From Chiloscyllium plagiosum (taxonomy: Eukaryota), in NCBI RefSeq assembly GCF_004010195.1, contig NC_057718.1:103667963-103731962 (forward strand): DNA of 64,000 nucleotides, written 5' to 3'. Positions 1,063 to 63,912 of the stretch are shown piece after piece; the first letter of the stretch is position 1; each line of letters begins with the position of its first letter. Position numbers and translations under genes: made by a program. The notes under the pieces were generated by a model. That model did not search any database. It saw only the letters and a program-made list of their open reading frames with translations, and was not told the origin of the DNA.

Positions 1063-4030
1063 TGGGTGAACGTGCAGCGTGGGTTGTTACCTGAGACTTC
1101 GATGTTGTGGCCATTACGGAGACATGGATAGAGCAGGGACAGGATTGGCTGTTGCAGGTTCCAGGATTCAGATGTTTCAGTAAGAACAGAGAAGATGGTA
1201 AAAGAGGGGGAGGTGTGACATTGTTGATCAGGGACAATATTACAGTTGTAGAAAAGATGTTTGGGGACTCGTTAACTGACGTAGTATGGGCTGAGGTTAG
1301 AAACAGGAAAGGAGAAGTCACCATGCTGGGAGTTTTCTATAGGCCTCTGAATAGTCCCAGAGATGTAGAGGAAAGGATAGCAAAGATGATTCTCGATAGG
1401 AGTGAGAGAAGCAGGGTAGTTGTCATGGGGGACTTCAACTATCCAAATATTGACTGGGATCACTACAGTACGAGTACTATAGATGGGTCAGTTTTTGTCC
1501 AGTGTGTGCAGGAGGGCTTCCTGACGCAGTATGTAGACAGATCTACAAGGGGCAAAGCCATTTTAGATTTAGTACTGGGTAACAAGGAAGTAGTTGAGCA
1601 CTTTGGAGACAGCGATCCCAATTCTGTCAGGTTTACTTTAGTGATGGAAAGGGATAGGTGTACTCCACCGAGCAAGAGTTACAGCTGGGGGAAGGGAAAT
1701 TACGATGCAATTAGGAAAGATTTAGGAAGCATAGGATGGGGAAGGAAACTGCAGGGGATGAGCACATTAAAAATGTGGAGCTTATTCAAGGAAAAGCTCC
1801 TGTGTGTCCTAGATAAGTATGTACCTGTCAGGCAGGGAGGAAGATATAGAACACGTGAGCTGTGGTTTACTAAGGAAGTGGTATCCCTGGTCAAGAAGAA
1901 GGCGGCTTATGTTAGGACAAAATGTGAAAACTCAGTTAGGGAGCTTGAGGGTTACAAGGAAGTCAGGAAAGACCTAAAAAGAGAGCTCAGAAGAGCTAGG
2001 AGCAGACATGAGAAGTTGTTGGCGGATAGGATCAGGGTTAACCCTAAGGCTTTTCATAGGTATGTCAGGAATAAAAGAACGATGAGAGTTAAATTAGGGC
2101 CAATCAAGGATAATAGAGGGAAGTTGTGTGTGAAGTCAGAGGAGATAGGGGAAGCACTAAATAAATATTTTTCGATAGTGTTCACTATAGAAAATGAAAA
2201 TGTTGGTGAGGAAGATACAGAGATACTTGCATCTAGACGAGAAGAGATTGAGGTTCACAAGGAAGAGGTAGCAGAAATACTGCAGAGTGTGAAAGTAGAC
2301 AAGTCCCTGGGGCCGGATGGGATCTATCCTCGGATCCTCTGGGAAGCAAGGGAAGAGATTGCCGAGCCTTTGGCATTGATCTTCAAATCATCATTGTCTA
2401 CAGGAATAGTGCCTGAGGACTGGAGGATAGCAAATGTGGTTCCCTTGTTCAAAAAGGGTAGTAGACACAACCCTGGTAATTACAGACCAGTGAGTCTCAC
2501 TTCAGTTGTTGGTAAAGTGTTGGAAAAGGTTATAAGAGAGACGATTTATAACCATCTAGAAAAGAATAATCTGATCAGGGATAGTCAGCACGGTTTTGTG
2601 AAGGGTAGGTCATGCCTAACGAATCTGATTGAATTTTTTGATAAAGTGATCAAACAGGTTGATGAGAGTAAACCGGTTGATGTGGTGTACATGGATTTCA
2701 GCAAGGCATTCGATAAGGTTCCCCACAGTAGGCTATTACACAAAATGTGGAGGGATGGGATTGTGGGAGACATAGCAGTTTGGCTCAGTAATTGGCTTGC
2801 TGAAAGAAAACAGAGGGTTGTAGTTGNNNNNNNNNNNNNNNNNNNNNNNNNNNNNNNNNNNNNNNNNNNNNNNNNNNNNNNNNNNNNNNNNNNNNNNNNN
2901 NNNNNNNNNNNNNNNNNNNNNNNNNNNNNNNNNNNNNNNNNNNNNNNNNNNNNNNNNNNNNNNNNNNNNNNNNNNNNNNNNNNNNNNNNNNNNNNNNNNN
3001 NNNNNNNNNNNNNNNNNNNNNNNNNNNNNNNNNNNNNNNNNNNNNNNNNNNNNNNNNNNNNNNNNNNNNNNNNNNNNNNNNNNNNNNNNNNNNNNNNNNN
3101 NNNNNNNNNNNNNNNNNNNNNNNNNNNNNNNNNNNNNNNNNNNNNNNNNNNNNNNNNNNNNNNNNNNNNNNNNNNNNNNNNNNNNNNNNNNNNNNNNNNN
3201 NNNNNNNNNNNNNNNNNNNNNNNNNNNNNNNNNNNNNNNNNNNNNNNNNNNNNNNNNNNNNNNNNNNNNNNNNNNNNNNNNNNNNNNNNNNNNNNNNNNN
3301 NNNNNNNNNNNNNNNNNNNNNNNNNNNNNNNNNNNNNNNNNNNNNNNNNNNNNNNNNNNNNNNNNNNNNNNNNNNNNNNNNNNNNNNNNNNNNNNNNNNN
3401 NNNNNNNNNNNNNNNNNNNNNNNNNNNNNNNNNNNNNNNNNNNNNNNNNNNNNNNNNNNNNNNNNCGGCCGCACTTGGAGTATTGTGTACAGTTCTGGTC
3501 ACCGCATTATAAGAAGGATGTGGAAGCTTTGGAAAGGGTGCAGAGGAGATTTACTAGGATGTTGCCTGGTATGGAAGGAATGTCTTATGAGGAAAGGCTG
3601 AGGGACTTGAAGCTGTTCTCGTTAGAGAGAAGAAGGTTGAGAGGTGACTTAATAGAGACATACAAGATAATCAGAGGGTTAGATAGGGTGGACAGGGAGA
3701 GTCTTTTTCCAAGTATGGGGACGGCAAACACGAGGGAACACAACTTTAAAGTGAGGGGAGATAGGTATAAGACAGATGTCAAAGGTAGTTTCTTTACTCA
3801 GACAGTAGTAAGGGTATGGAATGTTTTGCTTTCAATATTAGTAGGTTCGCCAAGTTTAAGTGAATTTAAGTCGTCATTGGACAGGCATATGGACGTACAT
3901 GGAATAGTGTGGGTGGGATGGGCTTCAGATTGGTATGACAGGTCGGCGCAACATCGAGGGCCGAAGGGCCTGTACTGTGCTGTAATATTCTATGTAACTC
4001 CTCTATGTACCTCTTCAATAATGTTCTATG
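1063..4030 (+). mobile_element. Young CR1 LINE, ORF2 (APE endonuclease plus reverse transcriptase), interrupted by an N gap
   Basis: Open frame from 1107 to the gap at 2826 contains AITETW, GVFYRP, MGDFNYP, ILDLVL, PGNYRPVSLTS, QHGFVKGRSCLTNL and VYMDFSKAFDKVPH. After the gap: [13 protein letters not shown]. 3' tail has tatgta repeats. Confidence 0.96.
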
Positions 4031-4179
4031 TAACCAAAATTAACAAATTGTCTCACCTACATTTTATTTAAAGATCTAGGACACTAATTGGCAAATGTTT
4101 AAATCTTCTGGTATCTTTCTTACCACAAATCTGTTCACATCTGTCCAAATCTCAGACTGGATCTGTCTAAACCTGTCCA

Positions 4180-11700: not shown

Positions 11701-12694
11701 GCCATCAGTCAGTGTGAAATTAAATACATTACAGGGTTAGGGATTAAAGTGTTTTATAGGCAACCATTCAGCCACATCAAACTTTAGCATTTAAAAAAAA
11801 ATCCGCACATTTGATCCTTGGACAGGAACCGTGGCTTGAGAATGGGAGTAGAACATTTGACACTGTCAATGGGGCATGCACAGTCTTCAGTTCAGAGCAC
11901 TGCTCTGCAAGGGAAGGAAGTATACGCAAGTAATGAATTAAGTCCTGGAGAATCACGCGAGCTGTGTTGCTAACAATCACCGCACTGCACACCAGTTCAT
12001 TTAACCGACAACATCAACACTCTTTAGCAAGCCAGGCTTGTTCCAATCACGATACCAGGAAAACATTGAAGATCGTTTAGTGTCATGGATCATTGTCAAG
12101 CTAAGCCTTTAAAGTATGACTTGTAGATGATCCATACAGAAAACAACAGGGGAGGCTACAGTTTTGTGACTTTCAATTCCTCATTCAAGAATTCAGACAG
12201 CTCACAACCTAACATTGCTGAATTCCAATGTAATGTTTAACACTTCAGATCCAAGTGCTGCGATGTACATTGTGAAATCCACATGCACATTGGCCAGTTT
12301 ATAACCTAAACATGCTTCCAAGGACTTAAGGGTCAGGAGACTTGATTCAACATTTTCTGCATCAACCCATTCAGAGATGTTATGAAACACCTGCGGAGTG
12401 GGTGGGATTTGAACCCACCTGACTCAGAGATAAAAGCCTGTAAGAGACTGATTAATTCAGAATTCCTGATGGAATTCCATCCAGGTTTGCTTTGCTAATT
12501 TGGTATTGCATGTGGGATCAACAGGAGTAAACTGGCAAACACAAAGTTTAGACAGACACTTACCTTTCGACAGCGGAAAGGAGCTCAGTGCGTGGCACAG
12601 CCTGCATAACCCTGAACAAATGAATGTTGTAGGAGCAGAGTCATTAAACATCCCTAGAAAGGAGATCAACAAGAACAACATGATCAAATCAAGC

Positions 12695-16785: not shown

Positions 16786-18764
16786 CCACATAGTCTCAAA
16801 CACTTACACAGAGCTACGATGCACTAAAACATAAGGACAATGATTAAGGCAGCTCCTGCAGTGCAGTGTTGCGGGAGAGCTGAACTGTTAGGGTTACTGT
16901 GCTACAGTGGTATGACTACTGTCTTTCAAATTAGACATTCAGTTTTAACCATGGACTGGATTTTCATATGTTTGGACCATTTCCTGAAAACTAGGAGAAA
17001 TATTTTATTTTCCCCAGTAGGACAGAGTTGGACTGGAGTCAGGACCTCCTGGGGCAACCAAAAGAGAACTAGAGGTGACAGATGGGTGCCAAGGCCATCA
17101 GGTGAGGATGCCTCAGAGTGTCCTTATATCTGTTCAACCATTTTACACAATCCTAAATTGGTTGAAAAACACCAGCCCATCTTAAGTGTTCATACATCTA
17201 TCAAGAAAAACAAAGATATTCAAAATCCACTTCAAAAGATTTTAATACTATTAACTGCTCATAAAACTGTCAATAAAAAACAGCACCAACCCCCATCCCA
17301 GCTAACTAAGCAACCAGTCTCAAGCTAAATCTATTATTGGGATTTGGAGCTCAGCCAAGCATTTACATTGGAAATTACATTGCAAAACTGTGTAAACTAG
17401 TCATTCAGTGCACAATGCATTAACTCAGTAGCCTAGATGGCTGGTTTGTGGGTTCAATTCCCACACCAGCGGAGGTTAGTGTAAAGTTTACTGTCCCTCC
17501 CAAACTCTCCCCTCTTCTAAGACGTGATCACCCTCAGGTTAAAATACCGCTGCTTATATGTCTTTAACGAGGGAGTGGGACTACAGTGACTTTACCTTAC
17601 ATTTGACCCTTTAAAGTTGACTATCTATCTGCTTCTTCTTTCCCAACAGCTCAACACATGGACTTCAGGTGTACCAAATACTGAAAACCACTGTTGTGAT
17701 GTAGAAATATGACTGCCAATGTGTCTGCAGGAAACTCCTGCAAATAGCAATCGATAAGTGATAACCTAATAATCTAACAGTGAATCCAATGATGTCAGTT
17801 GGGAGATAAATATTGTCACAGGACCCCAGGACAGAGTTCTCAGCTACAACAATTCACATTCATAGAGCACCTTTGATGTAATAAAATCTCTCAGCGACCC
17901 CCTTTGGGATTATGATCTTCAATTCACATGACACTGCGCTGCTGACAGCCAAGATGCTTTCGAAATCCAGCCCCAAGTTCCCATCCAACATAAAGGTGGA
18001 GAACTTGAAAAGTTCTTGAGATGGCGAGTTTGTAAACAGGGTAAGTTCTCATCATCCAGTCATGCACATTACAAGCAGTGGAGGAGAGGGAAGCAGAAAA
18101 GAACAGAAAATAATTGAAAGGAGTAAATAAAGAGCATTTTTAAGAAGTTCAGTCCACTCAATGTGGACTAACAGAGGAAAATAATTTCTCGACCTGCCTT
18201 ATTGAGTAAAGTAGTGGCTCACTTTTTTGGAATCACTTCAAGGCTTGAGAGGAACACTAAGAATATGTCTCATTTTACAAACCGTGCATAATTTGATGGT
18301 TCAATTCAATCGTTCTTTTTTGAATGAGGTTCACAGATTAAAAGTAAAGAAAAAGAACTATTCTGCGTAGATAGTTGCCAATCCTCCCGGAGTAGCTGGG
18401 AGACTGCTGCAATCTGGAATCTCCACCAACCTCCTGGAGACCAAAGAAAGCATTCTGGGAAATTAGAAGATGACTCCTTGCCTACACTCATTCTGCACAA
18501 TTCTCTGTGTACTGCAACATCACCAGCATAGGGAGAGGGGAAAGCGTGGGGCTGGTAGGATGGGGTTGTGTTGGGGGAAAATACAGTGAAAGGAAGGTGG
18601 GAGGGGGAGCGGAGTGGGGCACATAATGCTTGCCAACTGCAGCTGATAGGTGTCAGACAGACAGCAATAGAACTAGCCAAAGGTTTGGAAGACTCCATTT
18701 ACACTTTGCAGTTTCTGCACATCATGAAATGCAGAGCCAACGTTTTCATTGGGCTATCCCTCTC

Positions 18765-20534: not shown

Positions 20535-20668
20535 CTCCAGGAGTTCCACAGCTTTCATTCTTTCCTCGTGGTCAAATTGACCACAGCCAGCGTCAGCTGC
20601 TGTCCTTCGCTTTTCAGACTCTTTGGTGACAGATAGAAACGGTGGTGTCTGGGGGAGTGTGGCGGGGG
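20535..20668 (-). CDS. Candidate isolated exon (PATLPQTPPFLSVTKESEKRRTAADAGCGQFDHEERMKAVELLE)
   Basis: Acceptor ctattttctcttcccacggtag and donor GAG|gtaaga; open frame from phase 1 to phase 0. Confidence 0.35.
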
Positions 20669-28499: not shown

Positions 28500-29412
28500 C
28501 TCAGAGCGCCAACTCAGAGCGCCAACTCAGAGCGCCAACTCAGAGCGCCACCTCAGAGCGCCACCTCAGAGCGCCACCTCAGAGTGTCACCTCAGAGCGC
28601 CAACTCAGAGCGCCACCTCAGAGCGCCACCTCAGAGCGCCAACTCAGAGCGCCACCTCAGAGCGCCACCTCAGAGTGCCACCTCAGAGCGCCAACTCAGA
28701 GCGCCACCTCAGAGCGCCACCTCAGAGCGCCACCTCAGAGTGCCACCTCAGAGTGCCACCTCAGAGCGCCAACTCAGAGCGCCACCTCAGAGCGCCACCT
28801 CAGAGTGCCACCTCAGAGCGCCACCTCAGAGTGCCAACTCAGAGCGCCAACTCAGAGCGCCAACTCAGAGCGCCAACTCAGAGCGCCAACTCAGAGCGCC
28901 AACTCAGAGCGCCAACTCAGAGCGCCAACTCAGAGCGCCAACTCAGAGCGCCAACTCAGAGCGCCAACTCAGAGCGCCAACTCAGAGCGCCAACTCAGAG
29001 CGCCAACTCAGAGCGCCAACTCAGAGCGCCAACTCAGAGCGCCAACTCAGAGCGCCAACTCAGAGCGCCAACTCAGAGCGCCAACTCAGAGCGCCAACTC
29101 AGAGCGCCAACTCAGAGCGCCAACTCAGAGCGCCAACTCAGAGCGCCAACTCAGAGCGCCAACTCAGAGCGCCAACTCAGAGCGCCAACTCAGAGCGCCA
29201 ACTCAGAGCGCCAACTCAGAGCGCCAACTCAGAGCGCCAACTCAGAGCGCCAACTCAGAGCGCCAACTCAGAGCGCCAACTCAGAGCGCCAACTCAGAGC
29301 GCCAACTCAGAGCGCCAACTCAGAGCGCCAACTCAGAGCGCCACCTCAGAACGCCACCTCAGAGTGCCAACTCAGAGCGCCACCTCAGAGTGCCAACTCA
29401 GAGCGCCAACTC
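28500..29412 (+). repeat. 13-bp minisatellite CTCAGAG(C/T)GCCA(A/C), about 70 copies
   Basis: Visible directly; homogeneous core with variant units at both ends. Confidence 0.98.
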
Positions 29413-48112: not shown

Positions 48113-48764
48113 TAATTTGTTGTTCAGGATGAAAACACAATCCATTGGTCATGTATAAACTCCAAATGATGATGTCACAAGTGTGTCACTCGAAAATCTG
48201 GACCTCTTGTTTATCAACGCTTCAATCAATTGCTTTGAGGTCCATATTCCATAAAATGAATGGATTCAATGTCTGACTCAAGTTTGAAAAATTAAATATA
48301 TACTGCCATATAACAGTTTAATCTTTCCTTATTGTCATTTATCTTATTTTCAGCCTTTGAACTACACAATAATTTTCAACTCTTCTTCTTTGCATAAACT
48401 AAAATAGGAGATAAACACAATATCAAGACATATCATCCGTCACAACTCCCCCCCTGTGGCCTTGCCATCTGTTTTCATATTGTCCCTTTAAGTAGATCAT
48501 GAAGCTTTCCAAAAAAGCCCCCATCAGTGTCTCTTTGTACGCACTGACAGAGGGAGGTTTGGCCCCTGTCTGGAGCACCATCTTGCATGTGTTTATCTCC
48601 TCTCATCACCAGCTGGAGATAATAAATGGACCTGCAGCCTGATGGGGCAATCTCCACCTGTAGCGACCGCCAAAGTCCCAACAGATTTTACAACTGAATT
48701 CAACCTGATGACCAATTTAGAATTCCAACCACTCCAATAAGGGCGAAAAGGCTTATCCACTGTT

Positions 48765-48823
48765 TCAAAGTAAACGTTGATTGTAAAATCCTGGATGATA
48801 TTCAAGAAGGTCGGGGCTTATTC
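48765..48823 (-). CDS. Unidentified spliced gene, last coding exon ((R)ISPDLLEYHPGFYNQRLL*)
   Basis: Acceptor cttcttcttgatgtag; phase 1 matches the preceding exon; TGA at 48767-48765; possible ATTAAA signal at 48322-48317. Confidence 0.65.
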
Positions 48824-48916
48824 CTACATCAAGAAGAAGACTCAGACGTGACTTCTTGGAGGTCTTATAGTTCTGAATGGGTTGAATAGGATTGATGGGG
48901 AGAGAACATGCACAGC

Positions 48917-48951
48917 CACCTGATGAAGGGGCAGTGCTCCGAAAGCTAGTG
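48917..48951 (+). ncRNA. Minimal type I hammerhead ribozyme motif in a Penelope terminus (element about 48912-49040)
   Basis: CAC-CUGAUGA-A-GGGGC-agu-GCUCC-GAAA-GC-UA^GUG; stem I CAC/GUG, 5-bp stem II, palindromic AGCU in place of stem III. Confidence 0.8.
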
Positions 48952-50074
48952 CTTCCAATTAAACCTGTTGGACTATAACCTGGTGTTGTGTGATTTTTAA
49001 CTTTATTCACCCCAGTCCAACACCGGCACCTCCAAATCATTACCGATCCTGGTTACATGAGAATTATTAATTTATCCAAAAGACAAAAAGGAGAAAATTC
49101 AGAGAGTAGTTAGACCTTGGAACTTGCTACTGTAGGAAGCGGTGAATGCAATTAGCTTCAGTACGTTCAAAAGGAAACTAGACAAATAACTGAGAGAAAA
49201 GGGGCTAGAATGACAAGCTGAAAGGCTGAGATGAAGGAGATGGATTGGATAAAAGTGGTGTGGATTGTAAACGTTAGCACAAATTAATTGGCTGTTTCTG
49301 AGCTGTAGATTCTATGTAATTGTAGGCAACTTATTTATTCAGGAGCAATACAATCTAATGCACTTGAACATCACAATACTACTATTCTCTGTGGCACCAT
49401 GTAACATACAGCACAAAAACCATATATCAATCCTTTTAATCATTCATTGTCTCTGACTGAAATCTTTTTTGATATCCCAGGCAGAGAGCAAGCAGGTTGG
49501 GGGCTAGCAGAAAGATTGGGTGAAGAGAGGAAGCACGTGTTCACTGTTGGATTGAGCCTCTCAAGCAGGAATGACAACCTTACGACCCTTTCCCCAGTCA
49601 ATGTGTCAAATGCTCCTTTTATTCAATTTCTTCACAACTGTTTCAAAGAGATAATTTGACATATTTGGTATCATAAAGCTCTTATTCCCTCAGAATTGAA
49701 ATGCAGCATTTGATTTAGAGAATGTAACACTTGATTGTGGCTAAATTGACAAGTGTTGAGGCTACTGTCAATATATTTCATCCGTCAAGTGGTTTTCAGA
49801 GCAGTAGGTCTGATAGCTAGGCTGCTTGGCAGTGATCTGGCAATTGCTCCGCACTAAAGCTGATCATGTCTGTCCTTTCCTATTGTGATAGATGACAGGC
49901 TCTCCTGTCGAGTTTACTGTAGCACATGGAATAGGACCACTGAGCCTCTGACCAGTGGATGGAATGTATATCTGTTGCTAAAGGAATTCTAACATTTCAG
50001 ATGCAATTAATAAGTATTTTCCTAATCACTTTTTTTTAACTTCTTAAGGAAAGAATTCTTAAGAAAAAAACTTT

Positions 50075-50600
50075 CATTAGAGGTAGTGCAGAGAAAGTTC
50101 ATTCAGATGATTCCTGGGTGTGGAGGGGTTGTCTTATGAGCAAAGGTTAGACAGGTCGGGAGTCCAGTCACTGGAGTTTATAAGAAATTGAGACGAATGG
50201 GGCATGACAATGTTAATGCTGAGAGAATGATTTCCCCTCATGGAAGAGTCTGGGACCAGAGGAGACAGCCTCAGAATAAAGAATAAATTTCAGACTGAGA
50301 TGGGGAGGAATTTCTTCTATCAGAGAGTTGTGAGTCTTTGGAACTCCTTGCTGTGGGAGTGGAGTCCTTGTGTATATTTAAGGCTGAGATAGATACATTC
50401 CTGATAAGTCGGGAAATCCAGGGTAATAGGGAAAGGTCAGGAAAGTGGACACGTGTTTCTCCACAGATGTTGCCAGACCTGCTGGGCTTTTCGAGCAATT
50501 TCAGTGTTTTGTTTCTGAGGATCAGCTATGATCCTGTTGAATGGCAAAGTAAGCTCATGGGGCTGAATGGCCTACTCATGTTCCTATTCCTTGTAGTCTT
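50075..50600 (+). mobile_element. Degraded CR1 3' fragment with a small Penelope insert
   Basis: CR1 3' motifs; Penelope-type tail at about 50452-50515. Confidence 0.75.
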
Positions 50601-51310
50601 ATAGGCACAACCCAGAATATGCATTTGATAGGTGATCTTCAGGCATTCAAAGAAAAATTGCACCATCCAGTGAAAATGCTATGAATGTCAACTCGACTTT
50701 GACAAACTGCAAATATTCCATTTTTAATTACAGATTGAGTCAATGGGAAAAGTTGATGCCAGACTCTGCTGACTAACTACAGTGAGGCCTCTTACACTTC
50801 TATCCATCACGTAGCCATGAGACATGTTAAAGAAATTCAGATCGAATGGCTAGGCAAATTGGAACACAGTAGAGTGGATGTATTTTGAGCAACGTGGGTG
50901 TTTTGTGAGACAGGTAAGCAGCACACTAGCTGCATGGCACAGTAAATAATACAATGTCGAGTAGGGGGAATGCTGCATTGGTGCACAGAACTGTGACTTT
51001 TAAATTGACACCATGATGTATAGCACCAATTAAGAATGGATTTGATCTCAGAGCTTCACAGTTGAATCCAGTCAACTATGTCACAAAAGCCATTGGTTTC
51101 ATCTGCTGCATTCTGTGTTTTTTTTAGGTTAAGTGTGAAATATTAATTTAGCATTGATAAATTCAGCTCAGTTTCACTGTCAGTTTTGTTGGAACTTGTA
51201 CAGTTTATTGGTTGCAGATGCAGTTGACTTATCATTTCTTAGTTTAGGAATTACACAATTTGAATACATATTCTGGCATGAATCTCCCCAGGTGTGTGTG
51301 TGATACTCAC

Positions 51311-51338
51311 TTGCAGAATAGAGGAGACTTTTTGGTGC
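51311..51338 (-). CDS. Unidentified gene, micro-exon (APKSLLYSA)
   Basis: Acceptor ttttgcttattctacacactag and donor AA|gtgagt; 28 nt, phase 0 to 1. Confidence 0.7.
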
Positions 51339-51459
51339 CTAGTGTGTAGAATAAGCAAAACAGATAATAAATAAACCAAAATCAGTTCACCAATGTGATT
51401 TGTCTCAGCACAGGACACATTATCATGTCACTATCTTATTCATGTCTCAAGTAACTTAC

Positions 51460-51506
51460 CAGCAATTCTGTCAGCTGATTACTACGGAAATGATCATCGT
51501 TGCAAT
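51460..51506 (-). CDS. Unidentified gene exon ((D)CNDDHFRSNQLTELL)
   Basis: Acceptor cttgcatttttaaag and donor CTG|gtaagt; 47 nt, phase 1 to 0. Confidence 0.72.
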
Positions 51507-51744
51507 CTTTAAAAATGCAAGAATGGTTCATTTGAAACCAATGTTGTAACTATCATTGTGCAGGATTATGTGCAAGTTGTGCATTATTCATGAATAATGT
51601 TTTGCAGGATTAGGATAATCATTCACTTTCCCTTCATGGTCAAAGTAATAGTGAAGTATGGTTGTTGCTAGGAACTCACAATCAATATGCTTTTGGTTAT
51701 TAGCATCAGATTAATAATTCAAAATCATAAATAGTGCAATCCAC

Positions 51745-51868
51745 CCTCTTTGTGAACATGTAAGTTCTCCCCATAATTTTCCCCTTTGTTTTGCAAATAC
51801 ATCAGTTTAAAATTAGTCTTCGGCTTCACAATTTTGGTGTGATTGAAAATGGGTGTGACTGGCAAGCA
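51745..51868 (-). CDS. Unidentified gene exon (CLPVTPIFNH..NLHVHKE)
   Basis: Strong acceptor ttatttctgctttcttgaacag; donor AGG|gtggat is weak but gives the required phase 1. Confidence 0.55.
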
Positions 51869-52005
51869 CTGTTCAAGAAAGCAGAAATAAAAATAACAAA
51901 TGTTCATTTCCAAAGAGGCATCATCCTCAGCCCAGGACACTGTTTAAGTAGAAGAGCAAGCTGCCTTTTCTGTATAATTCACTTAGCAAGCTGCAAATTA
52001 TTTAC

Positions 52006-52129
52006 AGACCCAGCCATAAAGACATCTGTTGATGATACCAGGGAACTTGCAACCCATTTGTCCACATTTGTAGCATCATCTTCTTCGTGAGAATTGAAGG
52101 AACATTTTCTTGGCAATGAGTTTTGACGA
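52006..52129 (-). CDS. Unidentified gene exon (RQNSLPRKCSF..DVFMAGS)
   Basis: Acceptor ttacatttcacag; donor TCT|gtaaat, with an alternative in-phase donor ending the exon at 52039. Confidence 0.6.
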
Positions 52130-52247
52130 CTGTGAAATGTAATCTATTGACAATGGTGAGCAAAAGACAGCCAGAAAATAAAATCTGCTTTGCTCTGAAT
52201 ACGTTGCTGAGGTTTGGTTTAAGGAGGCTGACTCATATCCAACTTAC

Positions 52248-52276
52248 TGTGAAAAAATATTATTGATTTTCCCACT
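52248..52276 (-). CDS. Unidentified gene, micro-exon (SGKINNIFS(H))
   Basis: Acceptor tgcaattag and donor ACA|gtaagt; 29 nt, phase 0 to 2, bridging its neighbours. Confidence 0.62.
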
Positions 52277-52429
52277 CTAATTGCATTCAAATCATTCATT
52301 CTTTCTGGGTGGAAATGTTTATTCAGGTTGGACAAAGCTGAGTGTAATAACAATATAGTTTTTTCTCAGTAAAATATTACACTTTTAATTCAGTTTCACA
52401 ACTGTTTTGCATGATGCAGATTGGGGTCA

Positions 52430-52775
52430 ATGGTGATGTAGTGGTTATTATTACACAACTATTAAATCGAAGGTCTCAGGCTAATGGCTTCGAATCCCAT
52501 CCAAGGCAGCTGGGGTATTTAAAATTAATTAGTAAATCTGGAGTCTAAAGTTAGTCTCAGTGTGACCATAAAACCATCATCAATTGCTTTAAAAACCCAT
52601 CTGCTTTACTCATGTCCTTTGAAGAAGGGAATGTGCTGCCCTTGCCTAGTCTGGCCGACATATGATTCCAGACCCACAGCAATGATATTGACCAGGAAAG
52701 ACACTTAGTAAAAGGGTGATTAGGGACCCCAATTGATGGCTTTATCACTGACGACCAGATCCCACAAATGAATAA
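52430..52775 (+). mobile_element. tRNA-derived SINE sharing the CR1-clade tail
   Basis: B-box-like ttcgaatccc; core ctggcc..atgactccagacccacagcaat; related copies near 45870, 53570 and 56210. Confidence 0.7.
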
Positions 52776-53658
52776 AAGTGAAAGGATGTGATGGAAAGGT
52801 ATGTGGCTTTTGCTCCAATCTAATGTTCAAAGTAAAACAAAGGGGTGAAAACGCATGGGGGTGGGGGGCGCGGAGGGATTTCACGTCAATAATGACAAAT
52901 CAACAACAACCTGCATTCCTATAGAACCTTTAAGATAGCAAAACGTCCCGACGTGCTTCTCGAGAACACGGTCCAGGCATAATTTGACAACAAGCTATGG
53001 AAGAAGGTATCAGGCCAGTTAACCAAAAGCTTGCCAGAAAGATTAGTTTTAAGGAGAATTTTAAAGGGGATAAGGTGGACAGATAGGGGAGGATATTTGG
53101 AGGAGGATACTCCACAGCTTGGTCCCAGTTAGCTGAATCCACAAGTACCAATGCTGGGGGATTAAAATGCACAGATTGTTGGCATCCAATGCCCTGTTTT
53201 GGGGGGAAATGGATTTTGGAAGGTGTTATGTGGAGACAGGAACTGTAGTGAACTGCTCTTAGGTACGGTCTTCAGCCTTGTTTCAGAGGATAATGATTAA
53301 TTTTGGCAACAAAATGTACCACGTTCTTTGAGGGGGGAGGGGGATTGTTGGAGGTCAGGGTGGTGGTATATTTACATTTCTGTTCACCACGTCAGGGCAT
53401 CACAAAGCACCTTACAGCCAAAGAAGAACTTTGGAGGTGTAGTCACTACTGTCGGAAACGTAGCTGCTAGTCCACACACTGCAAACTCCCATAAACAGCA
53501 AAACAATTGTCTGTTTTTAGGCACCTTTATTGATGGGGACTTTGAGAAGAATCCTCTTGTCCATCAGCACTTGGTGTGGTTATGTCGCTGGACTAGCAAT
53601 CCTGAGCCCCATGCCAATGTTCCAGGAAAATGGGTTCAAATCCCACCCGTGGTAGGTA

Positions 53659-53878
53659 CAGTCCATTCTGATGTAACGCGATAGTTCCTGCTCCCGTGTC
53701 ATCCTGCGCTGTAAGAAAATCACGTAATAGCAGCGCCATTTAAACCAATGGGATTGGAATCACATTCTAGCCAGTCCAGGTGAGGAAAGATTGCGTTCTA
53801 CAAATAATGGTCTAAATTCTTCAATCACTTTGTGGCAAATTCGCGTTGAAGATACGCGCATTATAACAGAACCGACTG
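53659..53878. mobile_element. Tc1/mariner-Tigger-type MITE inserted in a SINE
   Basis: TA duplications at 53657-53658 and 53879-53880; imperfect TIRs CAGTCCATTCTGATGTAACGCG and CGCATTATAACAGAACCGACTG. Confidence 0.85.
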
Positions 53879-54429
53879 TAGTAATCTTTGAACTTAATAA
53901 AAAGCCAGGCTAATGGCAAGCACCTGGATCATTGTTGAGAAAATCCCCCATGTCCATTAATGTCCTCCAGGGAAGAGAATCTACCATTCTTACTTGGCCT
54001 GGCCTACATGTGACTCCAGTCCCATAGCAATGTGGTTGACTCTTTACCGCCCTCTGGACAATTAGAGGTGGGCACTAATTGCTGACCTAGCCAGTAGTAC
54101 TCACATCCCGTGAATGAATTTTAGAGGAAATGAAATCAAAACAGAGTCATGGATCCTTGCTGTCCGCCCAAGAAACTGGATGGGACCATGATTTAGCACC
54201 TCATCCTTACAGTGGTCGCACTGTCAGTGCAGCACTCCCTCAGCATTGGACTGGCGATTGTGAGCCCAGAATTTTGTGGTAAAGCCTCTGGAAAGGAGGT
54301 CACCCCCCCCCCAGGTGTTGGACCCAGAGGTAGGAGTATTACTCACAAAGTCCTGGCTTCCATTAACATTCCTCATACCCAACCTGCCCCAGAACCCCCA
54401 GTGGACATCCACGTTCAATGTTGATGGTG

Positions 54430-54790
54430 AAGGGAATAGATTGGATAGAAGTAAGGAGGTTGTTTCCACTGGAGGGTGAAATGGAACTAGGGGACATTGC
54501 CTCAAAATAAGGGGAAGCAGAATTTCGGACTGAGTTGAGGAGGAACTTCTTCTCCCAAAGGGTTGTGAATCTGTGGAATTCCCTGCCCTGGAAAGCATTG
54601 AGGCGACTTCATTGAATGTTTTTAAGGCAAAGATAGTCAGATATTTGAACAGTAAAGGAATGAAGGGTTATGGTGAGAGGGCGGGTAAGTGGAGCTGAGG
54701 CCATGACAAGATCAGCCATGATCTTATTGAATGGGAGAGCAGGCTCGATGGGCCGGATGGCCTACTCCTACTCGTAGTTCTTATGTTTGC
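54430..54790 (+). mobile_element. CR1 3' fragment
   Basis: TRGH..RVVNLWNSLP and 3' UTR. Confidence 0.85.
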
Positions 54791-55542
54791 ATGGTTTGCT
54801 TTCACTGACCTTATAGTGAGCTCATCCAAGAACAGAGGTTCAGGAAATTCCCCTCAATCCTGCTGAGAAGGGCAGAGGATCCTACAATGACAATCTCTGC
54901 CTACATTAGGGGTGCAGTGTCTGTGGATCTGAGCTTAAAATCCAGCCCTTCCATGGGGCTCCCAAAAAATGAAAATATAACGGTCCTCTGTGACATTTTG
55001 AGAGGATCAGTAAAGACTGCACATCATGATAAAATAGAGGGAAATAGCACCTTTTGAATGTCTAAACTCTGTTGGAGTGCTTGCAATTTTATTTCAACAC
55101 AGGATGATTAATAGCTTTTTTTAAAAAAAATAATCTTTCAATGTTTCAGTCGATATTTCAAAGTGTTGCGGCTGTCAGAAATGTTCAATCTGCTGAGTCA
55201 AACCATTATTTTTAAATAGCAGAAGACATTATGATTCAGATTACACAGAAAACATCTTTCCCCCCTCCAAACTGCAATCGACTACTCTTACTGCTGATCA
55301 AAGGCGTACATTATATAACTTGATACTACTGCCCAGAAACATGTGGACACAGCTGTAGTGTCATGTGTCACTGTTGCTGGTGTTGCCAGCTGGCAAGGAC
55401 ATAAAGGAAGACTAAACCAAACAATTACTGTAATTCATAACATCAACTATGCACTCAGAACACAGTACAGGCTTTATGCAATAACTCTGCATTAAAACAC
55501 ATCCAATGGTGTAGAAATGTTTTAATCACCTATCAATCTTAC

Positions 55543-55629
55543 CCAAGTGACTGTGCCAAAAAAATCACTGTACTTTACTACCCATTGTCCTGCTGGGAGA
55601 CTGTCACATTTGCAAACGGATGCTTCTTG
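55543..55629 (-). CDS. Unidentified gene exon (QEASVCKCDSLPAGQWVVKYSDFFGTVTW)
   Basis: Acceptor ttctgtgacatttaaag and donor TGG|gtaaga; 87 nt, phase 0 to 0. Confidence 0.72.
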
Positions 55630-56359
55630 CTTTAAATGTCACAGAAGCATGATGTTATGTCTCACAGAACTGTCAGACATTTTTGTTTAAATTACAGTGA
55701 AACTTGTTTTGGCAGGGTTTAAATCAGAGTGTGTCATCTGGGCAGAAGTGAAAAAAGAAGAATTCACTTAACACAAAGTTTACTTTTGCAAGCAGAACAT
55801 TAACAGGATGGCTACAAATGGGCTGGACAGAAACAGGATGGATTATTTCTTTGAGGCGGCATTCATTTAGCAGAAATATACACTCGCCAGGTATTAACTG
55901 AAGTGGGATTGGCCTCATGATTGGTGTTGGATTGGTAAGTGTGGGATAGGTAAGAAGAGTCCAAAAAAATGTCTGGATGAAGGAGCTGATCTAAATAGAA
56001 GCATTGTTGCAGACGGTTGCTGCTTGCCTGTTGTACAGAGCCAGAATCTCAGCAAAGCATGCTAAATTGGATTATGGTCAGATTCTGTCTTTGGTTACTG
56101 TGAGATCTGTTCTGGTTTGGAGTGAAATGGGGAACTAACCACATTTCAGAGCCATCACTGAGCCTTACCCTCTACTTTTACCTCTCTGATATGTTTTTAA
56201 AATCTTTTATACATTCACAGGATGTGGATAACACTGTCCAGACCAACACTTATTGCCCACCCCCAATTACCCAAAGGGCAATTAAGCATTAACCACATTG
56301 CTGAGAGTGTGGAGTCACATGTAGGTCAGACCAAGTAAAGACAGAGACAAGACAGCATG

Positions 56360-56630
56360 TCGGCTCAGTGGTTAGCACTGCTACCTCACAGCATCAGCCT
56401 TGGGCGACTGTGTGGCATTTGCCATTTGCCCCATGTGTCTGCATGGGTTTCCTCTCACGGTCCAAAGATGTGCAGGTTAGGTGGATTGGCCATGCTAAAT
56501 TCCCCATAATATCTAGGGATTTTACAGGGATAGGATGGGTGTGGGTGGGATGCTCTTCGGACGGTCTATGTGGACTTGATGGGCTGAATGGCCTGTTTCC
56601 AAGGTTTCCATGAATCATTAGTTTCTATGA
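56360..56630 (+). mobile_element. HE1-type V-SINE nested in another SINE
   Basis: ggctcagtggttagcactgct head; host SINE halves at about 56210-56340 and 56630-56810. Confidence 0.8.
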
Positions 56631-56899
56631 TTCATTTCCTTCCCAAAGCACATTAGTGATGTAGATGGGTTCTTAGAACAATCGCCAATAGTTTTATGGT
56701 CATCATTAGATTTTTAATTCTAGACTTTTATTAGATTCAAAAACTCCTATCTGCCCTGTCAGAATTTGAAGCTGGGTCCCCAGAACTTTACCGGGGTCTT
56801 TGGTTGAATAGGTTGAGTGATCGTCTCCCCCAACGTTAGCCAACGTTGCCCTTGCCTCAGCCTATCTGCTGTTGGAACATGCCTTTGTTACCTCTAGAC

Positions 56900-57395
56900 C
56901 TGGGCATTCCAACAAAGCCCTGGGCTGCTCCCCTCCGTATACTTCAGCTCCTCCAAAGCTCTGCCCCTTGTTGTCTTCATCACACCAAGGCATCTTCATT
57001 TATTACTCCGGTGCCCTCTGACCTACATCGGCTGCTTGTTTCCGAATCCCAGCCTGAGCTCAGCCTGTGCTACCTCTGTAACCTCTCCAACTGCACATCT
57101 AGCTCTGAGATCTATGTGATCCTCTAATTCTGGCCTCTTGATCATTCTGGATTTTAATTGCTCCACTACTGGTGACCATGCCTTCAGCAGTCTGAGCCAC
57201 AAGCTCTGGAATTCCTTTCCTAAATCTCTCTGCCGCTATAACTCACTTTCCTCTTTAAAGCCGCCCCTTAAATTAAACGGATAGCCACCAGCCATCTACC
57301 CTAATGCCTCCTTATGTGGCCTGGAGTCAAATGTTTCCTTTATATTGCCTCTGTAAAAGTGCTTTGGGGCTTTTAATAACATTAGAGGTGCTGCG
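56900..57395 (+). mobile_element. L2-type LINE 3' fragment
   Basis: Decayed ITPV..LH.L and AFS..APKLWNSLP segments; related pieces near 9000-9200 and 27330-27580. Confidence 0.6.
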
Positions 57396-57719
57396 AAACC
57401 ATAAGTGGGGCAGTCTCTATGGGCCAAATGGCCGACTATTGCTCTTACATCGTAAGCGCATTGAAATTCCCCTCCGAGCCACTCACCATCCTGACTTGTG
57501 AATATTTTGGATTCCTTCAGTGTTGCTGGGTCAAATCCCGGCATTCCCTCCGCAAGGGAATTGTGGCCTTCCTTACACCCAGACACTGCAGAGGTTGAAG
57601 ATGCCAGCTCACTGTCACCTTCTCAAGGGGACGTACAGGCCCAGCCAGTGAAGCCCATGTCCCATTAATGGATATAAGTAAGTCTGCTGGTGGTGCTGTT
57701 TTCAGAGCACCAGATTTCT

Positions 57720-57937
57720 TGACAAAAACAGAAGTTGCTGGAAAAGCTCAGAAGGTCTGGCAGCACCTGTGGAGAGAAATCAGAGTTAACGTTTCAAGTC
57801 TGGTGATCTTTCCTCAGAACCCGATCTGAAGCATTAACTCTGATTTCTCTCCACAGGCACTGCCAGACCTGCTGAGCTTTTCACAGCAAATTCTGTCTTT
57901 GTCTCTCATTTACAGCATCCGTAGTTCTTTCGGCTTT
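57720..57937. mobile_element. Penelope-like fold-back at an exon-intron junction
   Basis: Inverted arms at about 57721-57795 and 57827-57903; degenerate hammerhead on minus 57785-57820; flanking accagattt duplication. Confidence 0.8.
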
Positions 57938-57941
57938 TTAC

Positions 57942-58040
57942 CAGATTTTGCAAAGCACACACTGGAGGGAAGGAATCAACTCCCGGCATTCCACCCTTGG
58001 CACGAGGGAGCTGGATCTGATAGACAAAAGGAATGCCAGC
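57942..58040 (-). CDS. Unidentified gene exon (AGIPFVYQIQLPRAKGGMPGVDSFPPVCALQNL)
   Basis: Branch point tactgac plus acceptor cttttctgttttggatttcag; donor CTG|gtaaaa; 99 nt. Confidence 0.75.
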
Positions 58041-58129
58041 CTGAAATCCAAAACAGAAAAGGTCAGTACTGAAAAGCAAATCTCATGATCGAAATGGGAG
58101 AGGTCCATCTTCAACAAGGAGTGACAAAC

Positions 58130-58240
58130 CTGACTATGGGCTTTGGAAGGAAACGCCAAGTTTCCCTTCACAAAGCCGGCTTCATCAAGCATCTGTTCAA
58201 CACAGTCTTCAGGGCTGGCGGGCAATCGGTCTACATCAAA
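58130..58240 (-). CDS. Unidentified gene exon (FDVDRLPASPEDCVEQMLDEAGFVKGNLAFPSKAHSQ)
   Basis: Acceptor ttttactttcag and donor CAG|gtttgt; 111 nt; only frame 0 is open. Confidence 0.75.
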
Positions 58241-58374
58241 CTGAAAGTAAAACCCCACACTTTAACCAAGCCGTACAGACACCGTCACGCTCCACTGTGA
58301 AACATAGTTTGAGAAGAGCCAAGAGCATTCTTGCCTTCAACAACAGCAGCAGCAGCAGGAGCAAGAATACTAAC

Positions 58375-58419
58375 TGGTCTTGTTAGCTTTGGCAACTGAA
58401 GACGTATATGGGTCAGAAG
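58375..58419 (-). CDS. Unidentified gene exon (LLTHIRLQLPKLTRP), most 5' exon found
   Basis: Acceptor ccctcgtattttcag and donor CCA|gttagt; 45 nt, phase 0 to 0. Confidence 0.62.
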
Positions 58420-58604
58420 CTGAAAATACGAGGGATGCGTGTAATTTTACTTTGAAAAGCTTTGTTAAAGCATTGATATTGAGGCTTAACCAATACGTAA
58501 CGCTCCTGGGCATCTTTTTTTGATTAGTTTGCACTTGCGTTGCATCTTTTCATTTAATATTCCCATTGGGTTAGAAACTGTCCAAACACATAATTGTATA
58601 GAAT

Positions 58605-59844: not shown

Positions 59845-61112
59845 TAGTGGTGCTGGAAGAGCACAGCAGTTCAGGCAGCATCCGAGGAGCAGTAAAATCA
59901 ACGTTTCGGGCAAGAGCCCTCCATCAGGAATAAAGGCAGAGAGCCTGAAGGGTGGAGAGATAAATGAGAGGAGGGTGGGGCTGGGGAGAAAGTAGCATAG
60001 AGTACAATAGGTGAGTGGGGGAGGGGATGAAGGTNNNNNNNNNNNNNNNNNNNNNNNNNNNNNNNNNNNNNNNNNNNNNNNNNNNNNNNNNNNNNNNNNN
60101 NNNNNNNNNNNNNNNNNNNNNNNNNNNNNNNNNNNNNNNNNNNNNNNNNNNNNNNNNNNNNNNNNNNNNNNNNNNNNNNNNNNNNNNNNNNNNNNNNNNN
60201 NNNNNNNNNNNNNNNNNNNNNNNNNNNNNNNNNNNNNNNNNNNNNNNNNNNNNNNNNNNNNNNNNNNNNNNNNNNNNNNNNNNNNNNNNNNNNNNNNNNN
60301 NNNNNNNNNNNNNNNNNNNNNNNNNNNNNNNNNNNNNNNNNNNNNNNNNNNNNNNNNNNNNNNNNNNNNNNNNNNNNNNNNNNNNNNNNNNNNNNNNNNN
60401 NNNNNNNNNNNNNNNNNNNNNNNNNNNNNNNNNNNNNNNNNNNNNNNNNNNNNNNNNNNNNNNNNNNNNNNNNNNNNNNNNNNNNNNNNNNNNNNNNNNN
60501 NNNNNNNNNNNNNNNNNNNNNNNNNNNNNNNNNNNNNNNNNNNNNNNNNNNNNNNNNNNNNNNNNNNNNNNNNNNNNNNNNNNNNNNNNNNNNNNNNNNN
60601 NNNNNNNNNNNNNNNNNNNNNNNNNNNNNNNNNNNNNNNNNNNNNNNNNNNNNNNNNNNNNNNNNNNNNNNNNNNNNNNNNNNNNNNNNNNNNNNNNNNN
60701 NNNNNNNNNNNNNNNNNNNNNNNNNNNNNNNNNNNNNNNNNNNNNNNNNNNNNNNNNNNNNNNNNNNNNNNNNNNNNNNNNNNNNNNNNNNNNNNNNNNN
60801 NNNNNNNNNNNNNNNNNNNNNNNNNNNNNNNNNNNNNNNNNNNNNNNNNNNNNNNNNNNNNNNNNNNNNNNNNNNNNNNNNNNNNNNNNNNNNNNNNNNN
60901 NNNNNNNNNNNNNNNNNNNNNNNNNNNNNNNNNNNNNNNNNNNNNNNNNNNNNNNNNNNNNNNNNNNNNNNNNGGTGGGGGGTGGTGCCGGTGTAATTAC
61001 GGAAGATCGACTGTTCTACGTAGCCAACAAAGAGACAGGCATAGCTGGGGCCCATACGTGTGCCCATGGCTACCCCTTTGGTCTGGAGGAAGTGGGAGAA
61101 TTCGAAGGAGAA
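59845..61112 (-). mobile_element. Penelope-like element spanning an N gap (60035-60973)
   Basis: RT motif FLQTKGVAMGTRMGPSYACLFVGYVE; terminal hammerhead-like motif at about 59898-59930. Confidence 0.92.
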
Positions 61113-62759: not shown

Positions 62760-63912
62760 CTGAAAATGTGTTGCTGGAAAAGCGCAGCAGGTCATGCAGC
62801 GTCCAGGGAACAGGAGAATCGACGTTTCGGGCATAAGCCCTTCTTCAGGAATGAGGAAAGTTTGTCCAGCAGGCTAAGATAAAAGGTAGGGAGGAGGGAC
62901 TTGGGGGAGGGGAGTCGAAAATGTGATAGGTGGAGCTGGTCATTCAAAGTTAGTACTTGGTGAAATGAGAATCAAATGCATAACATGGTATATGAATTTC
63001 ATTGTCAGTGTAATGCTAGAAATATCAGCCACATATCCTAAAGGCTGGCAGATCTTATCAAATAGCATGTCCATTTGTTTGTTGGTCATTCAAAGCTGGT
63101 CATTCAAAGTTAGTACTTGGTGAAATGAGAATCAAATGCATAACATGGTATATGAATTTCATTGTCAGTGTAATGCTAGAAATATCAGCCACATATCCTA
63201 AAGGCTGGCAGATCTTATCAAATAGCATGTCCATTTGTTTGTTGGTCATTCAAAGCTGGTCATTCAAAGTTAGTACTTGGTGAAATGAGAATCAAATGCA
63301 TAACATGGTATATGAATTTCATTGTCAGTGTAATGCTAGAAATATCAGCCACATATCCTAAAGGCTGGCAGATCTTATCAAATAGCATGTCCATTTGTTT
63401 GTTGGTCATTCAAAGCTGGTCATTCAAAGTTAGTACTTGGTGAAATGAGAATCAAATGCATAACATGGTATATGAATTTCATTGTCAGTGTAATGCTAGA
63501 AATATCAGCCACATATCCTAAAGGCTGGCAGATCTTATCAAATAGCATGTCCATTTGTTTGTTGGTCATTCAAAGCTGGTCATTCAAAGTTAGTACTTGG
63601 TGAAATGAGAATCAAATGCATAACATGGTATATGAATTTCATTGTCAGTGTAATGCTAGAAATATCAGCCACATATCCTAAAGGCTGGCAGATCTTATCA
63701 AATAGCATGTCCATTTGTTTGTTGGTCATTCAAAGCTGGTCATTCAAAGTTAGTACTTGGTGAAATGAGAATCAAATGCATAACATGGTATATGAATTTC
63801 ATTGTCAGTGTAATGCTAGAAATATCAGCCACATATCCGGCGGCGCCGATACAGTCATCGATGTAGCGGAGGAAAAGGTGGGGGGTGGGGCCAGTGTAGT
63901 TGCGGAAGATGG
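62760..63912 (-). mobile_element. 5'-truncated Penelope-like element with 13-bp TSD; interior replaced by a tandem array
   Basis: TSD acctgtccaaatg at 62747-62759 and 63913-63925; RT motif LFLRYIDDCIG; hammerhead core on minus 62819-62850. Confidence 0.9.
62934..63838. repeat. Perfect 160-bp tandem array, about 5.7 copies
   Basis: cattcaaagttag recurs at 62941, 63101, 63261, 63421, 63581 and 63741. Confidence 0.97.

What the first reader, a model, noticed from the sequence alone, without database searches (positions are those of the whole stretch)
48765..58419. Hidden ten-exon minus-strand gene encoding a protein I cannot assign to a family
Ten GT-AG exons (45, 111, 99, 87, 29, 124, 124, 47, 28 and 59 nt; 753 nt in total) splice with consistent phases into LLTHIRLQLPKLTRPFDVDRLPASPEDCVEQMLDEAGFVKGNLAFPSKAHSQAGIPFVYQIQLPRAKGGMPGVDSFPPVCALQNLQEASVCKCDSLPAGQWVVKYSDFFGTVTWSGKINNIFSHRQNSLPRKCSFNSHEEDDATNVDKWVASSLVSSTDVFMAGSCLPVTPIFNHTKIVKPKTNFKLMYLQNKGENYGENLHVHKEDCNDDHFRSNQLTELLAPKSLLYSARISPDLLEYHPGFYNQRLL*. 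The splice signals and phases are visible in the sequence; that they form one transcript is inference. The first ~120 aa look globular, followed by a polar linker and a short hydrophobic C-terminal motif. No start exon was found. It may be an uncharacterised gene, or a known gene I failed to recognise.
Basis: partly seen in the sequence, partly recalled or inferred. Interest (0 to 1): 0.75.

Follow-up and report, generated by a model that had tools for sequence, protein, structure and literature searches.

The report
Unassigned spliced gene segment in shark
Ten short DNA segments on one strand join into a stop-free 250-amino-acid reading frame that is likely part of a larger gene in what appears to be a shark genome, but single-exon searches found no relative and splicing is untested, so it is an unidentified gene fragment rather than a demonstrated new kind of protein.

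Summary
Ten minus-strand segments (58419 to 48765) have AG/GT ends and the stated lengths, and join into 250 codons plus a stop. Evidence that they are a real gene is moderate. They avoid repeats, sit in two short-intron clusters and show coding-type codon-position bias (P 0.015-0.03, joint 0.006). A crude gene model did not separate them from chance. Exon 5's acceptor and exon 6's donor are weak, and exon 10 is not proven terminal: a stronger in-frame exon lies at 20668-20535. No junction reads were obtained. No exon frame searched had a credible match in Pfam, PDB, the ESM Atlas or two large protein libraries. The assembled peptide was never searched externally, and the word-indexed searches stopped at 2,000 residues. 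Most likely these are internal or 3' exons of one large gene spanning the window, whose protein is over 2,000 residues or unannotated, and whose encoded part is a soluble binding module. A shark-restricted orphan and a partly chance chain remain open. Gene architecture is ordinary; identity is unresolved.

The parts
58375..58419 (-). Proposed exon 1 (45 nt); good acceptor, weak donor; two open frames. The second frame extends upstream to an ATG at 58513.
58130..58240 (-). Proposed exon 2 (111 nt); only one open frame; predicted helix at its residues 10-20; alternative acceptor 10 nt inside (start 58230).
57942..58040 (-). Proposed exon 3 (99 nt); strong acceptor with a branch-point-like CTGAC 26 nt upstream, in an 89-nt intron.
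55543..55629 (-). Proposed exon 4 (87 nt); only one open frame; good donor.
52248..52276 (-). Proposed exon 5 (29 nt); good donor but poor acceptor (48th percentile, pyrimidine fraction 0.42); least secure exon.
52006..52129 (-). Proposed exon 6 (124 nt); weak splice sites; two open frames.
51745..51868 (-). Proposed exon 7 (124 nt); strong acceptor with a 55-nt AG-free zone; only one open frame.
51460..51506 (-). Proposed exon 8 (47 nt); near-consensus donor; its only open frame is the one that exon 7's phase requires.
51311..51338 (-). Proposed exon 9 (28 nt); near-consensus donor, phase 1.
48765..48823 (-). Proposed last coding exon (59 nt with stop); strong acceptor. The nearest downstream polyadenylation-like hexamers are ATTAAA at 48322 and AATAAA at 46773. 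Terminal status unproven.
20535..20668 (-). Candidate further exon (134 nt, phase 1 in, phase 0 out): the best-scoring exon candidate on the minus strand; joins exon 9 in frame without a stop.
12564..12653 (-). Candidate further exon (90 nt, phase 1/1) with strong acceptor and consensus donor; link to the gene unknown.
62940..63089 (-). 49-codon ATG-started frame in the last copy of a 160-bp perfect tandem repeat; has GT sites in phases that fit either frame of exon 1. Speculative upstream or start exon in a probably misassembled stretch.

Best explanation
The ten segments form an open 250-codon chain and are likely internal or 3' coding exons of one large minus-strand gene that probably spans the window, whose protein is likely over 2,000 residues or unannotated and so escaped single-exon searches. 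Shown: the splice dinucleotides, phases and open frame; the absence of a membrane-spanning stretch in this part; no credible database match for the exon frames searched. Inferred: the exons are spliced into one message. The encoded part is predicted to be soluble, with a compact mixed helix/strand unit (residues 1-114), a second short ordered block (151-190) between two flexible stretches, and a short ordered end. It would most likely work as a non-enzymatic protein-binding module of a large, fast-evolving, tissue-restricted scaffold. That functional step is a guess of about 1 in 4.
For: Exact AG/GT chain with continuous frame. Exons 2, 4, 7 and 8 each have a single open frame and it is the one the chain needs. 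Codon-position bias of coding type: GC1-GC2 0.148 and G1-G2 0.116, P 0.003 and 0.007 against random open frames. Against length-matched AG..GT open segments of repeat-masked DNA, P was 0.015 and 0.028, joint 0.006; the window's own LINE frame gives similar values. 0 of 10 exons overlap self-repeats; the two clusters are 0-2% masked against 18-36% for the long introns. 7 of 10 exons are richer in GC than both 60-nt flanks. No start exon adjoins securely, and strong same-strand, phase-compatible exon candidates lie 30 and 39 kb downstream. The best of them also had no relative among 78-2,000-residue proteins, as expected if the whole locus is missing from that size range. Highest 19-residue hydropathy is 1.2.
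Against: No junction reads and no orthologue were obtained. A crude exon-chain model gave 28.5 and 17.3 for chains over the two clusters, and 18 of 40 resampled windows reached 28.5. 35 of 223 other window segments reached the exon 5-9 score. The RNY statistic is not significant (P 0.18). The search of 50%-identity representatives listed no length range, yet returned no vertebrate relative of exon 2, which a large annotated shark protein might have given. Nothing tested here shows a scaffold function or tissue restriction.
Confidence: 0.42

Rival explanations
1. A real, small-to-medium gene restricted to cartilaginous fishes (or evolving too fast to recognise), absent from public protein sets, with a domain of no described family.
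For: No match for exon 2 in 90%-identity clusters of 73-2,000 residues (1 candidate, none at E 0.1 or better) or among 1.84 billion 50% representatives (one spurious repeat hit). No candidate at all for exon 7. Earlier notes, not checked here, say shark RefSeq proteins are reachable in that library, and passages of 10.1101/685743 report slow substitution in cartilaginous fishes, so an annotated shark orthologue should share words. An in-frame ATG at 58513 or in the 63089-62940 frame could supply a start, and exon 10 ends in a stop.
Against: Queries of 29-58 residues are insensitive and the whole peptide was not searched. The same paper's passages report that gene-family novelty falls steeply after the jawed-vertebrate ancestor. 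A gene expressed and conserved in sharks would usually be modelled in at least one annotated genome (general knowledge).
Confidence: 0.25
2. The chain is wholly or largely a chance assembly of cryptic splice sites in unique non-coding DNA, or the remains of a decayed gene or non-coding transcript.
For: Loose exon candidates occur at about 6 per kb on this strand (384 in 64 kb), so phase-consistent chains can be built. The crude gene model does not separate the clusters from resampled DNA. Several splice sites are weak. No homologue was found in any search.
Against: Codon-position bias; 0 of 200 shuffles reach the exon 6-9 splice score; a branch-point-like motif and long AG-free zones before exons 3, 7, 8 and 9; no frameshift or stop over 250 codons.
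Confidence: 0.2
3. The exons are real and belong to an already annotated gene of ordinary size that the protein libraries here hold incompletely or index poorly.
For: The word-indexed search warns that finding nothing is weak evidence.
Against: Three different exon frames in this window all failed in the word-indexed search, and exon 2 failed in the unindexed search.
Confidence: 0.13

Closest known systems
Uncharacterised multi-exon vertebrate genes (the class of 'uncharacterized LOC' or open-reading-frame genes; class named from general knowledge, no specific member identified)
   Same: Canonical GT-AG introns, exon sizes of 28-124 nt, clusters of short introns separated by repeat-filled long ones, soluble product without a recognised domain.
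   Different: No specific gene could be matched, so orthology, length and expression are unknown.
Ig-like or calpain-III-type beta-sandwich ends, and helix-strand ends of class I methyltransferase or heavy-metal-associated domains (resemblances recalled from memory only)
   Same: Exon 4 carries a short Leu-x-x-Gly-x-aromatic strand pattern; exon 2 carries a helix (predicted) ending in a small-Gly-aromatic cap.
   Different: Neither resemblance was supported: no Pfam family (one weak unrelated hit at E 0.26), only chance-level PDB hits and no Foldseek match for the exon 2 model.

Membership tests
Spliced protein-coding gene | Canonical splice dinucleotides with a continuous open frame | tested here: met
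   10 of 10 acceptors AG, 9 of 9 donors GT, 250 codons without an internal stop
Spliced protein-coding gene | Splice-site strength and exon chain beyond chance | tested here: inconclusive
   Shuffles: 11, 2 and 0 of 200; other window segments: 10 of 443, 35 of 223, 28 of 265. Chain model not separated from null, 18 of 40.
Spliced protein-coding gene | Coding-type three-base periodicity | tested here: met
P 0.015 and 0.028, joint 0.006; RNY P 0.18.
Spliced protein-coding gene | Junction-spanning RNA reads | not tested
   The one read-laying run returned no result
Spliced protein-coding gene | Exon conservation and purifying selection in related species | not testable with these tools
   No genome held; no orthologue found
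Spliced protein-coding gene | Start codon and promoter | tested here: inconclusive
   Two candidate ATGs; no CpG-rich kilobase near the gene; an assembly gap lies at 60035-60973
Any Pfam-A family | Score above the family's curated cut-off | tested here: inconclusive
   0 of 20 exon-sized or ORF-sized frames from the window reached a cut-off; fragments only, the assembled peptide was not scanned
Membrane protein | Hydrophobic 19-residue span | tested here: not met
   Highest mean Kyte-Doolittle value over 19 residues is 1.2; applies to this 250-residue part only
Transposable-element-derived sequence | Similarity to repeats or to the LINE reading frame in the window | tested here: not met
   0 of 10 exons masked by self-comparison; clusters 0-2% masked with the LINE frame added. 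Only repeats present in this window were used.

The most novel reading that the evidence does not exclude
A genuine gene of cartilaginous fishes, missed by public annotation, whose first 115 residues here form a protein domain of no described family; either a shark innovation or an ancient gene lost in bony vertebrates.
Probability: 0.22. Interest if true: 0.5.

Novelty: new member of a known kind. Interest (0 to 1): 0.28.

Why it matters
If it is a piece of a large known or uncharacterised vertebrate gene, it is an annotation gap and little more. If it is a shark-restricted or bony-vertebrate-lost gene with a new domain, it adds a family to the jawed-vertebrate gene inventory and a fold target. 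Nothing in the architecture (ordinary introns, ordinary exon sizes, soluble product) is surprising, and no open question becomes directly testable until the protein is identified.

Tried and rejected
Own-genome search: no genome held. Word-indexed protein search, longer proteins only (73 or 78 to 2,000 residues): exon 2, 1 candidate and none scoring; exon 7, no candidate; the 20666-20535 frame, 5 candidates and none scoring. Exon 2 against 50% representatives: one hit, a bacterial cadherin/Ig-repeat protein whose score is summed over six repeats of an 18-residue match; rejected. ESM Atlas: exon 2 top scores 0.90-0.91 to tiny unnamed clusters, exon 3 0.81; uninformative. PDB sequence search of 8 frames: designed armadillo repeats by summation, an antibody chain, MotB and a fructokinase at E 0.7-1.6, otherwise nothing. 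Pfam on 20 frames: two weak hits below cut-off, one (RAMP, E 0.017) on a frame that appears to run into a common repeat. Metagenome scan: 2 loci of 273 pattern matches, neither matching the assembled peptide at E 10; rejected. Rfam: 0 matches. AlphaFold2 of exon 2 alone: one helix, mean pLDDT 69.6, no Foldseek match; too small to mean anything. Sequencing runs for 51250-52350: 4 holders from one study at 0.72-0.88 of words, kind unrecorded and possibly the source sample; no RNA holder listed, which is no evidence either way. Read laying gave no result. Earlier findings: none near this place or alike in sequence. Retention of the 89-nt intron gives a 107-codon open frame; I disfavour it because that intron has a strong acceptor and branch-point-like motif. 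Three literature searches (listings and abstract starts only) could not address an unnamed gene, so no claim is made that it is absent from print.
Full report
Observation. On the minus strand they are 58419-58375, 58240-58130, 58040-57942, 55629-55543, 52276-52248, 52129-52006, 51868-51745, 51506-51460, 51338-51311 and 48823-48765. Each follows an AG, the nine internal ones precede a GT, and joined they give 753 nt, 250 codons and a TGA, identical to the reported peptide. Introns are 134, 89, 2312, 3266, 118, 137, 238, 121 and 2487 nt, so eight exons sit in two tight clusters. The window holds a CR1-like LINE frame at 1095-2826 (family label recalled) and two assembly gaps. Earlier scan notes call this a bamboo-shark genome; I did not test that.

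Is it more than chance? The evidence is mixed. With a simple splice matrix whose weights I recalled, most sites rank high among all AG and GT sites of the strand. Exon 5's acceptor is at the 48th percentile and exon 6's sites at the 74th and 67th. Exon 3 has a branch-point-like CTGAC 26 nt upstream, and exons 7, 8 and 9 have AG-free zones of 55, 41 and 63 nt. A chain model adding a crude coding term scored chains over the two clusters at 28.5 and 17.3, while 18 of 40 resampled windows reached 28.5 and other stretches of the real window scored higher. That test does not support the gene. Loose candidates occur at about 6 per kb, so phase consistency alone is weak.

Evidence independent of splice sites is more favourable. 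Exons 2, 4, 7 and 8 each have one open frame, the one the chain needs. The joined frame shows coding-type position bias (GC1-GC2 0.148, G1-G2 0.116), with P 0.003 and 0.007 against random open frames. Against length-matched AG..GT open segments of repeat-masked DNA, P was 0.015 and 0.028, joint 0.006; the RNY measure was not significant at 0.18. The window's LINE frame, as a control, gives 0.116 and 0.125. None of the ten exons overlaps a self-repeat. The clusters are 0-2% masked against 18-36% for the three long introns. I put the chance that most of these exons are real coding exons at about 0.8.

The model's details are less secure. Exon 1 has a second open frame that runs back to an ATG at 58513 and fits an alternative exon 2 acceptor at 58230. 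Exon 9 ends in phase 1 and joins without a stop to 20668-20535, the best-scoring exon candidate on the whole minus strand, or to 12653-12564, so exon 10 need not be the end. Upstream, a perfect 160-bp repeat of 5.7 copies at 62934-63838 holds a 49-codon ATG frame with GT sites in both usable phases. The repeat looks misassembled, so this is only a lead. No other gene was identified in the window, and Rfam found nothing.

Identity. Only single-exon or single-frame queries of 27-107 residues were searched; the assembled peptide was not sent to any external library or folded. Pfam gave no match above cut-off for 20 frames. PDB sequences gave chance hits for 8 frames. The ESM Atlas gave nothing usable. 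The word-indexed search of 90% clusters found nothing for exon 2, exon 7 or the 20666-20535 frame, but looked only at proteins up to 2,000 residues. The search of 1.84 billion 50% representatives with exon 2 returned one bacterial repeat protein by score summation. Two metagenome loci did not match the assembled peptide. Earlier notes, unchecked, indicate that shark RefSeq proteins are reachable in these libraries, and passages of 10.1101/685743 report slow substitution in cartilaginous fishes (I saw 12 passages, not the whole text). An annotated shark orthologue under 2,000 residues should therefore have been found. That leaves a protein over 2,000 residues whose cluster representative is distant, a locus unannotated in sharks, incomplete libraries, or no gene. 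No junction-read evidence was obtained, and the run listing is no evidence on expression.

What the encoded part looks like. No membrane span is present (highest 19-residue hydropathy 1.2). FoldIndex is positive for residues 1-114, 151-190 and 227-250 and negative for 115-150 and 191-226; simple propensities suggest several strands and a few short helices. AlphaFold2 on exon 2 alone gives one helix at residues 10-20 with block pLDDT 83 and no Foldseek match. Resemblances I recalled to Ig-like strand patterns and methyltransferase or metal-binding helix caps found no support.

How it most likely works. Shown: the open chain, its splice dinucleotides, the lack of a membrane span and the lack of database matches at exon level. 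Inferred: the exons are spliced as part of one large minus-strand gene spanning the window, and this part contributes a compact soluble domain followed by flexible stretches with short ordered blocks. That layout is typical of binding modules in large scaffold proteins (general knowledge), and poor detectability fits a fast-evolving, tissue-restricted gene. I give 0.42 to the large-gene reading and about 1 in 4 to the scaffold function. Rivals: a shark-restricted orphan of ordinary size (0.25), a chance or decayed chain (0.2), and an annotated ordinary gene that these libraries miss (0.13).

Novelty. The gene architecture is ordinary and no family membership could be established or excluded for the whole peptide. 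I file it as a probable new member of a known kind, an unassigned spliced gene. The boldest reading not excluded is a cartilaginous-fish gene with an undescribed domain (0.22). Three paper searches (listings only) cannot test an unnamed gene, and no supplements were read. Interest is modest because failure to assign it reflects the limits of fragment searches as much as the biology.

Noticed in passing
window 62934-63838: 160-bp tandem repeat, 5.7 copies, 100% identical, starting at a junction with a retroelement-like reverse-transcriptase fragment; each unit carries a 49-codon minus-strand ATG frame. Probably an assembly artefact, possibly multiplying a real exon (no Pfam or PDB match).
   Followed up: partly
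window 20668-20535, minus strand: Strongest exon candidate on the minus strand, in unique DNA; no relative among 78-2,000-residue proteins, Pfam or PDB.
   Followed up: partly
window 12653-12564, minus strand: 90-nt exon candidate with strong acceptor and consensus donor; no credible match.
   Followed up: partly
window 17021-17101, plus strand: 81-nt phase 0/0 exon candidate with strong splice sites on the opposite strand, isolated; no Pfam match.
   Followed up: partly
window 28500-29412: 13-bp minisatellite, about 70 copies, 96% matches, giving long open frames.
   Followed up: no
window 1095-4071, plus strand: Long CR1-like LINE reading frame (endonuclease and reverse transcriptase, label recalled) interrupted by the 2827-3465 assembly gap.
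   Followed up: no
window 58261-57941, minus strand: Exon 2, the 89-nt intron and exon 3 in another frame read through as one 107-codon open frame, so intron retention would not meet a stop until the end of exon 3.
   Followed up: partly
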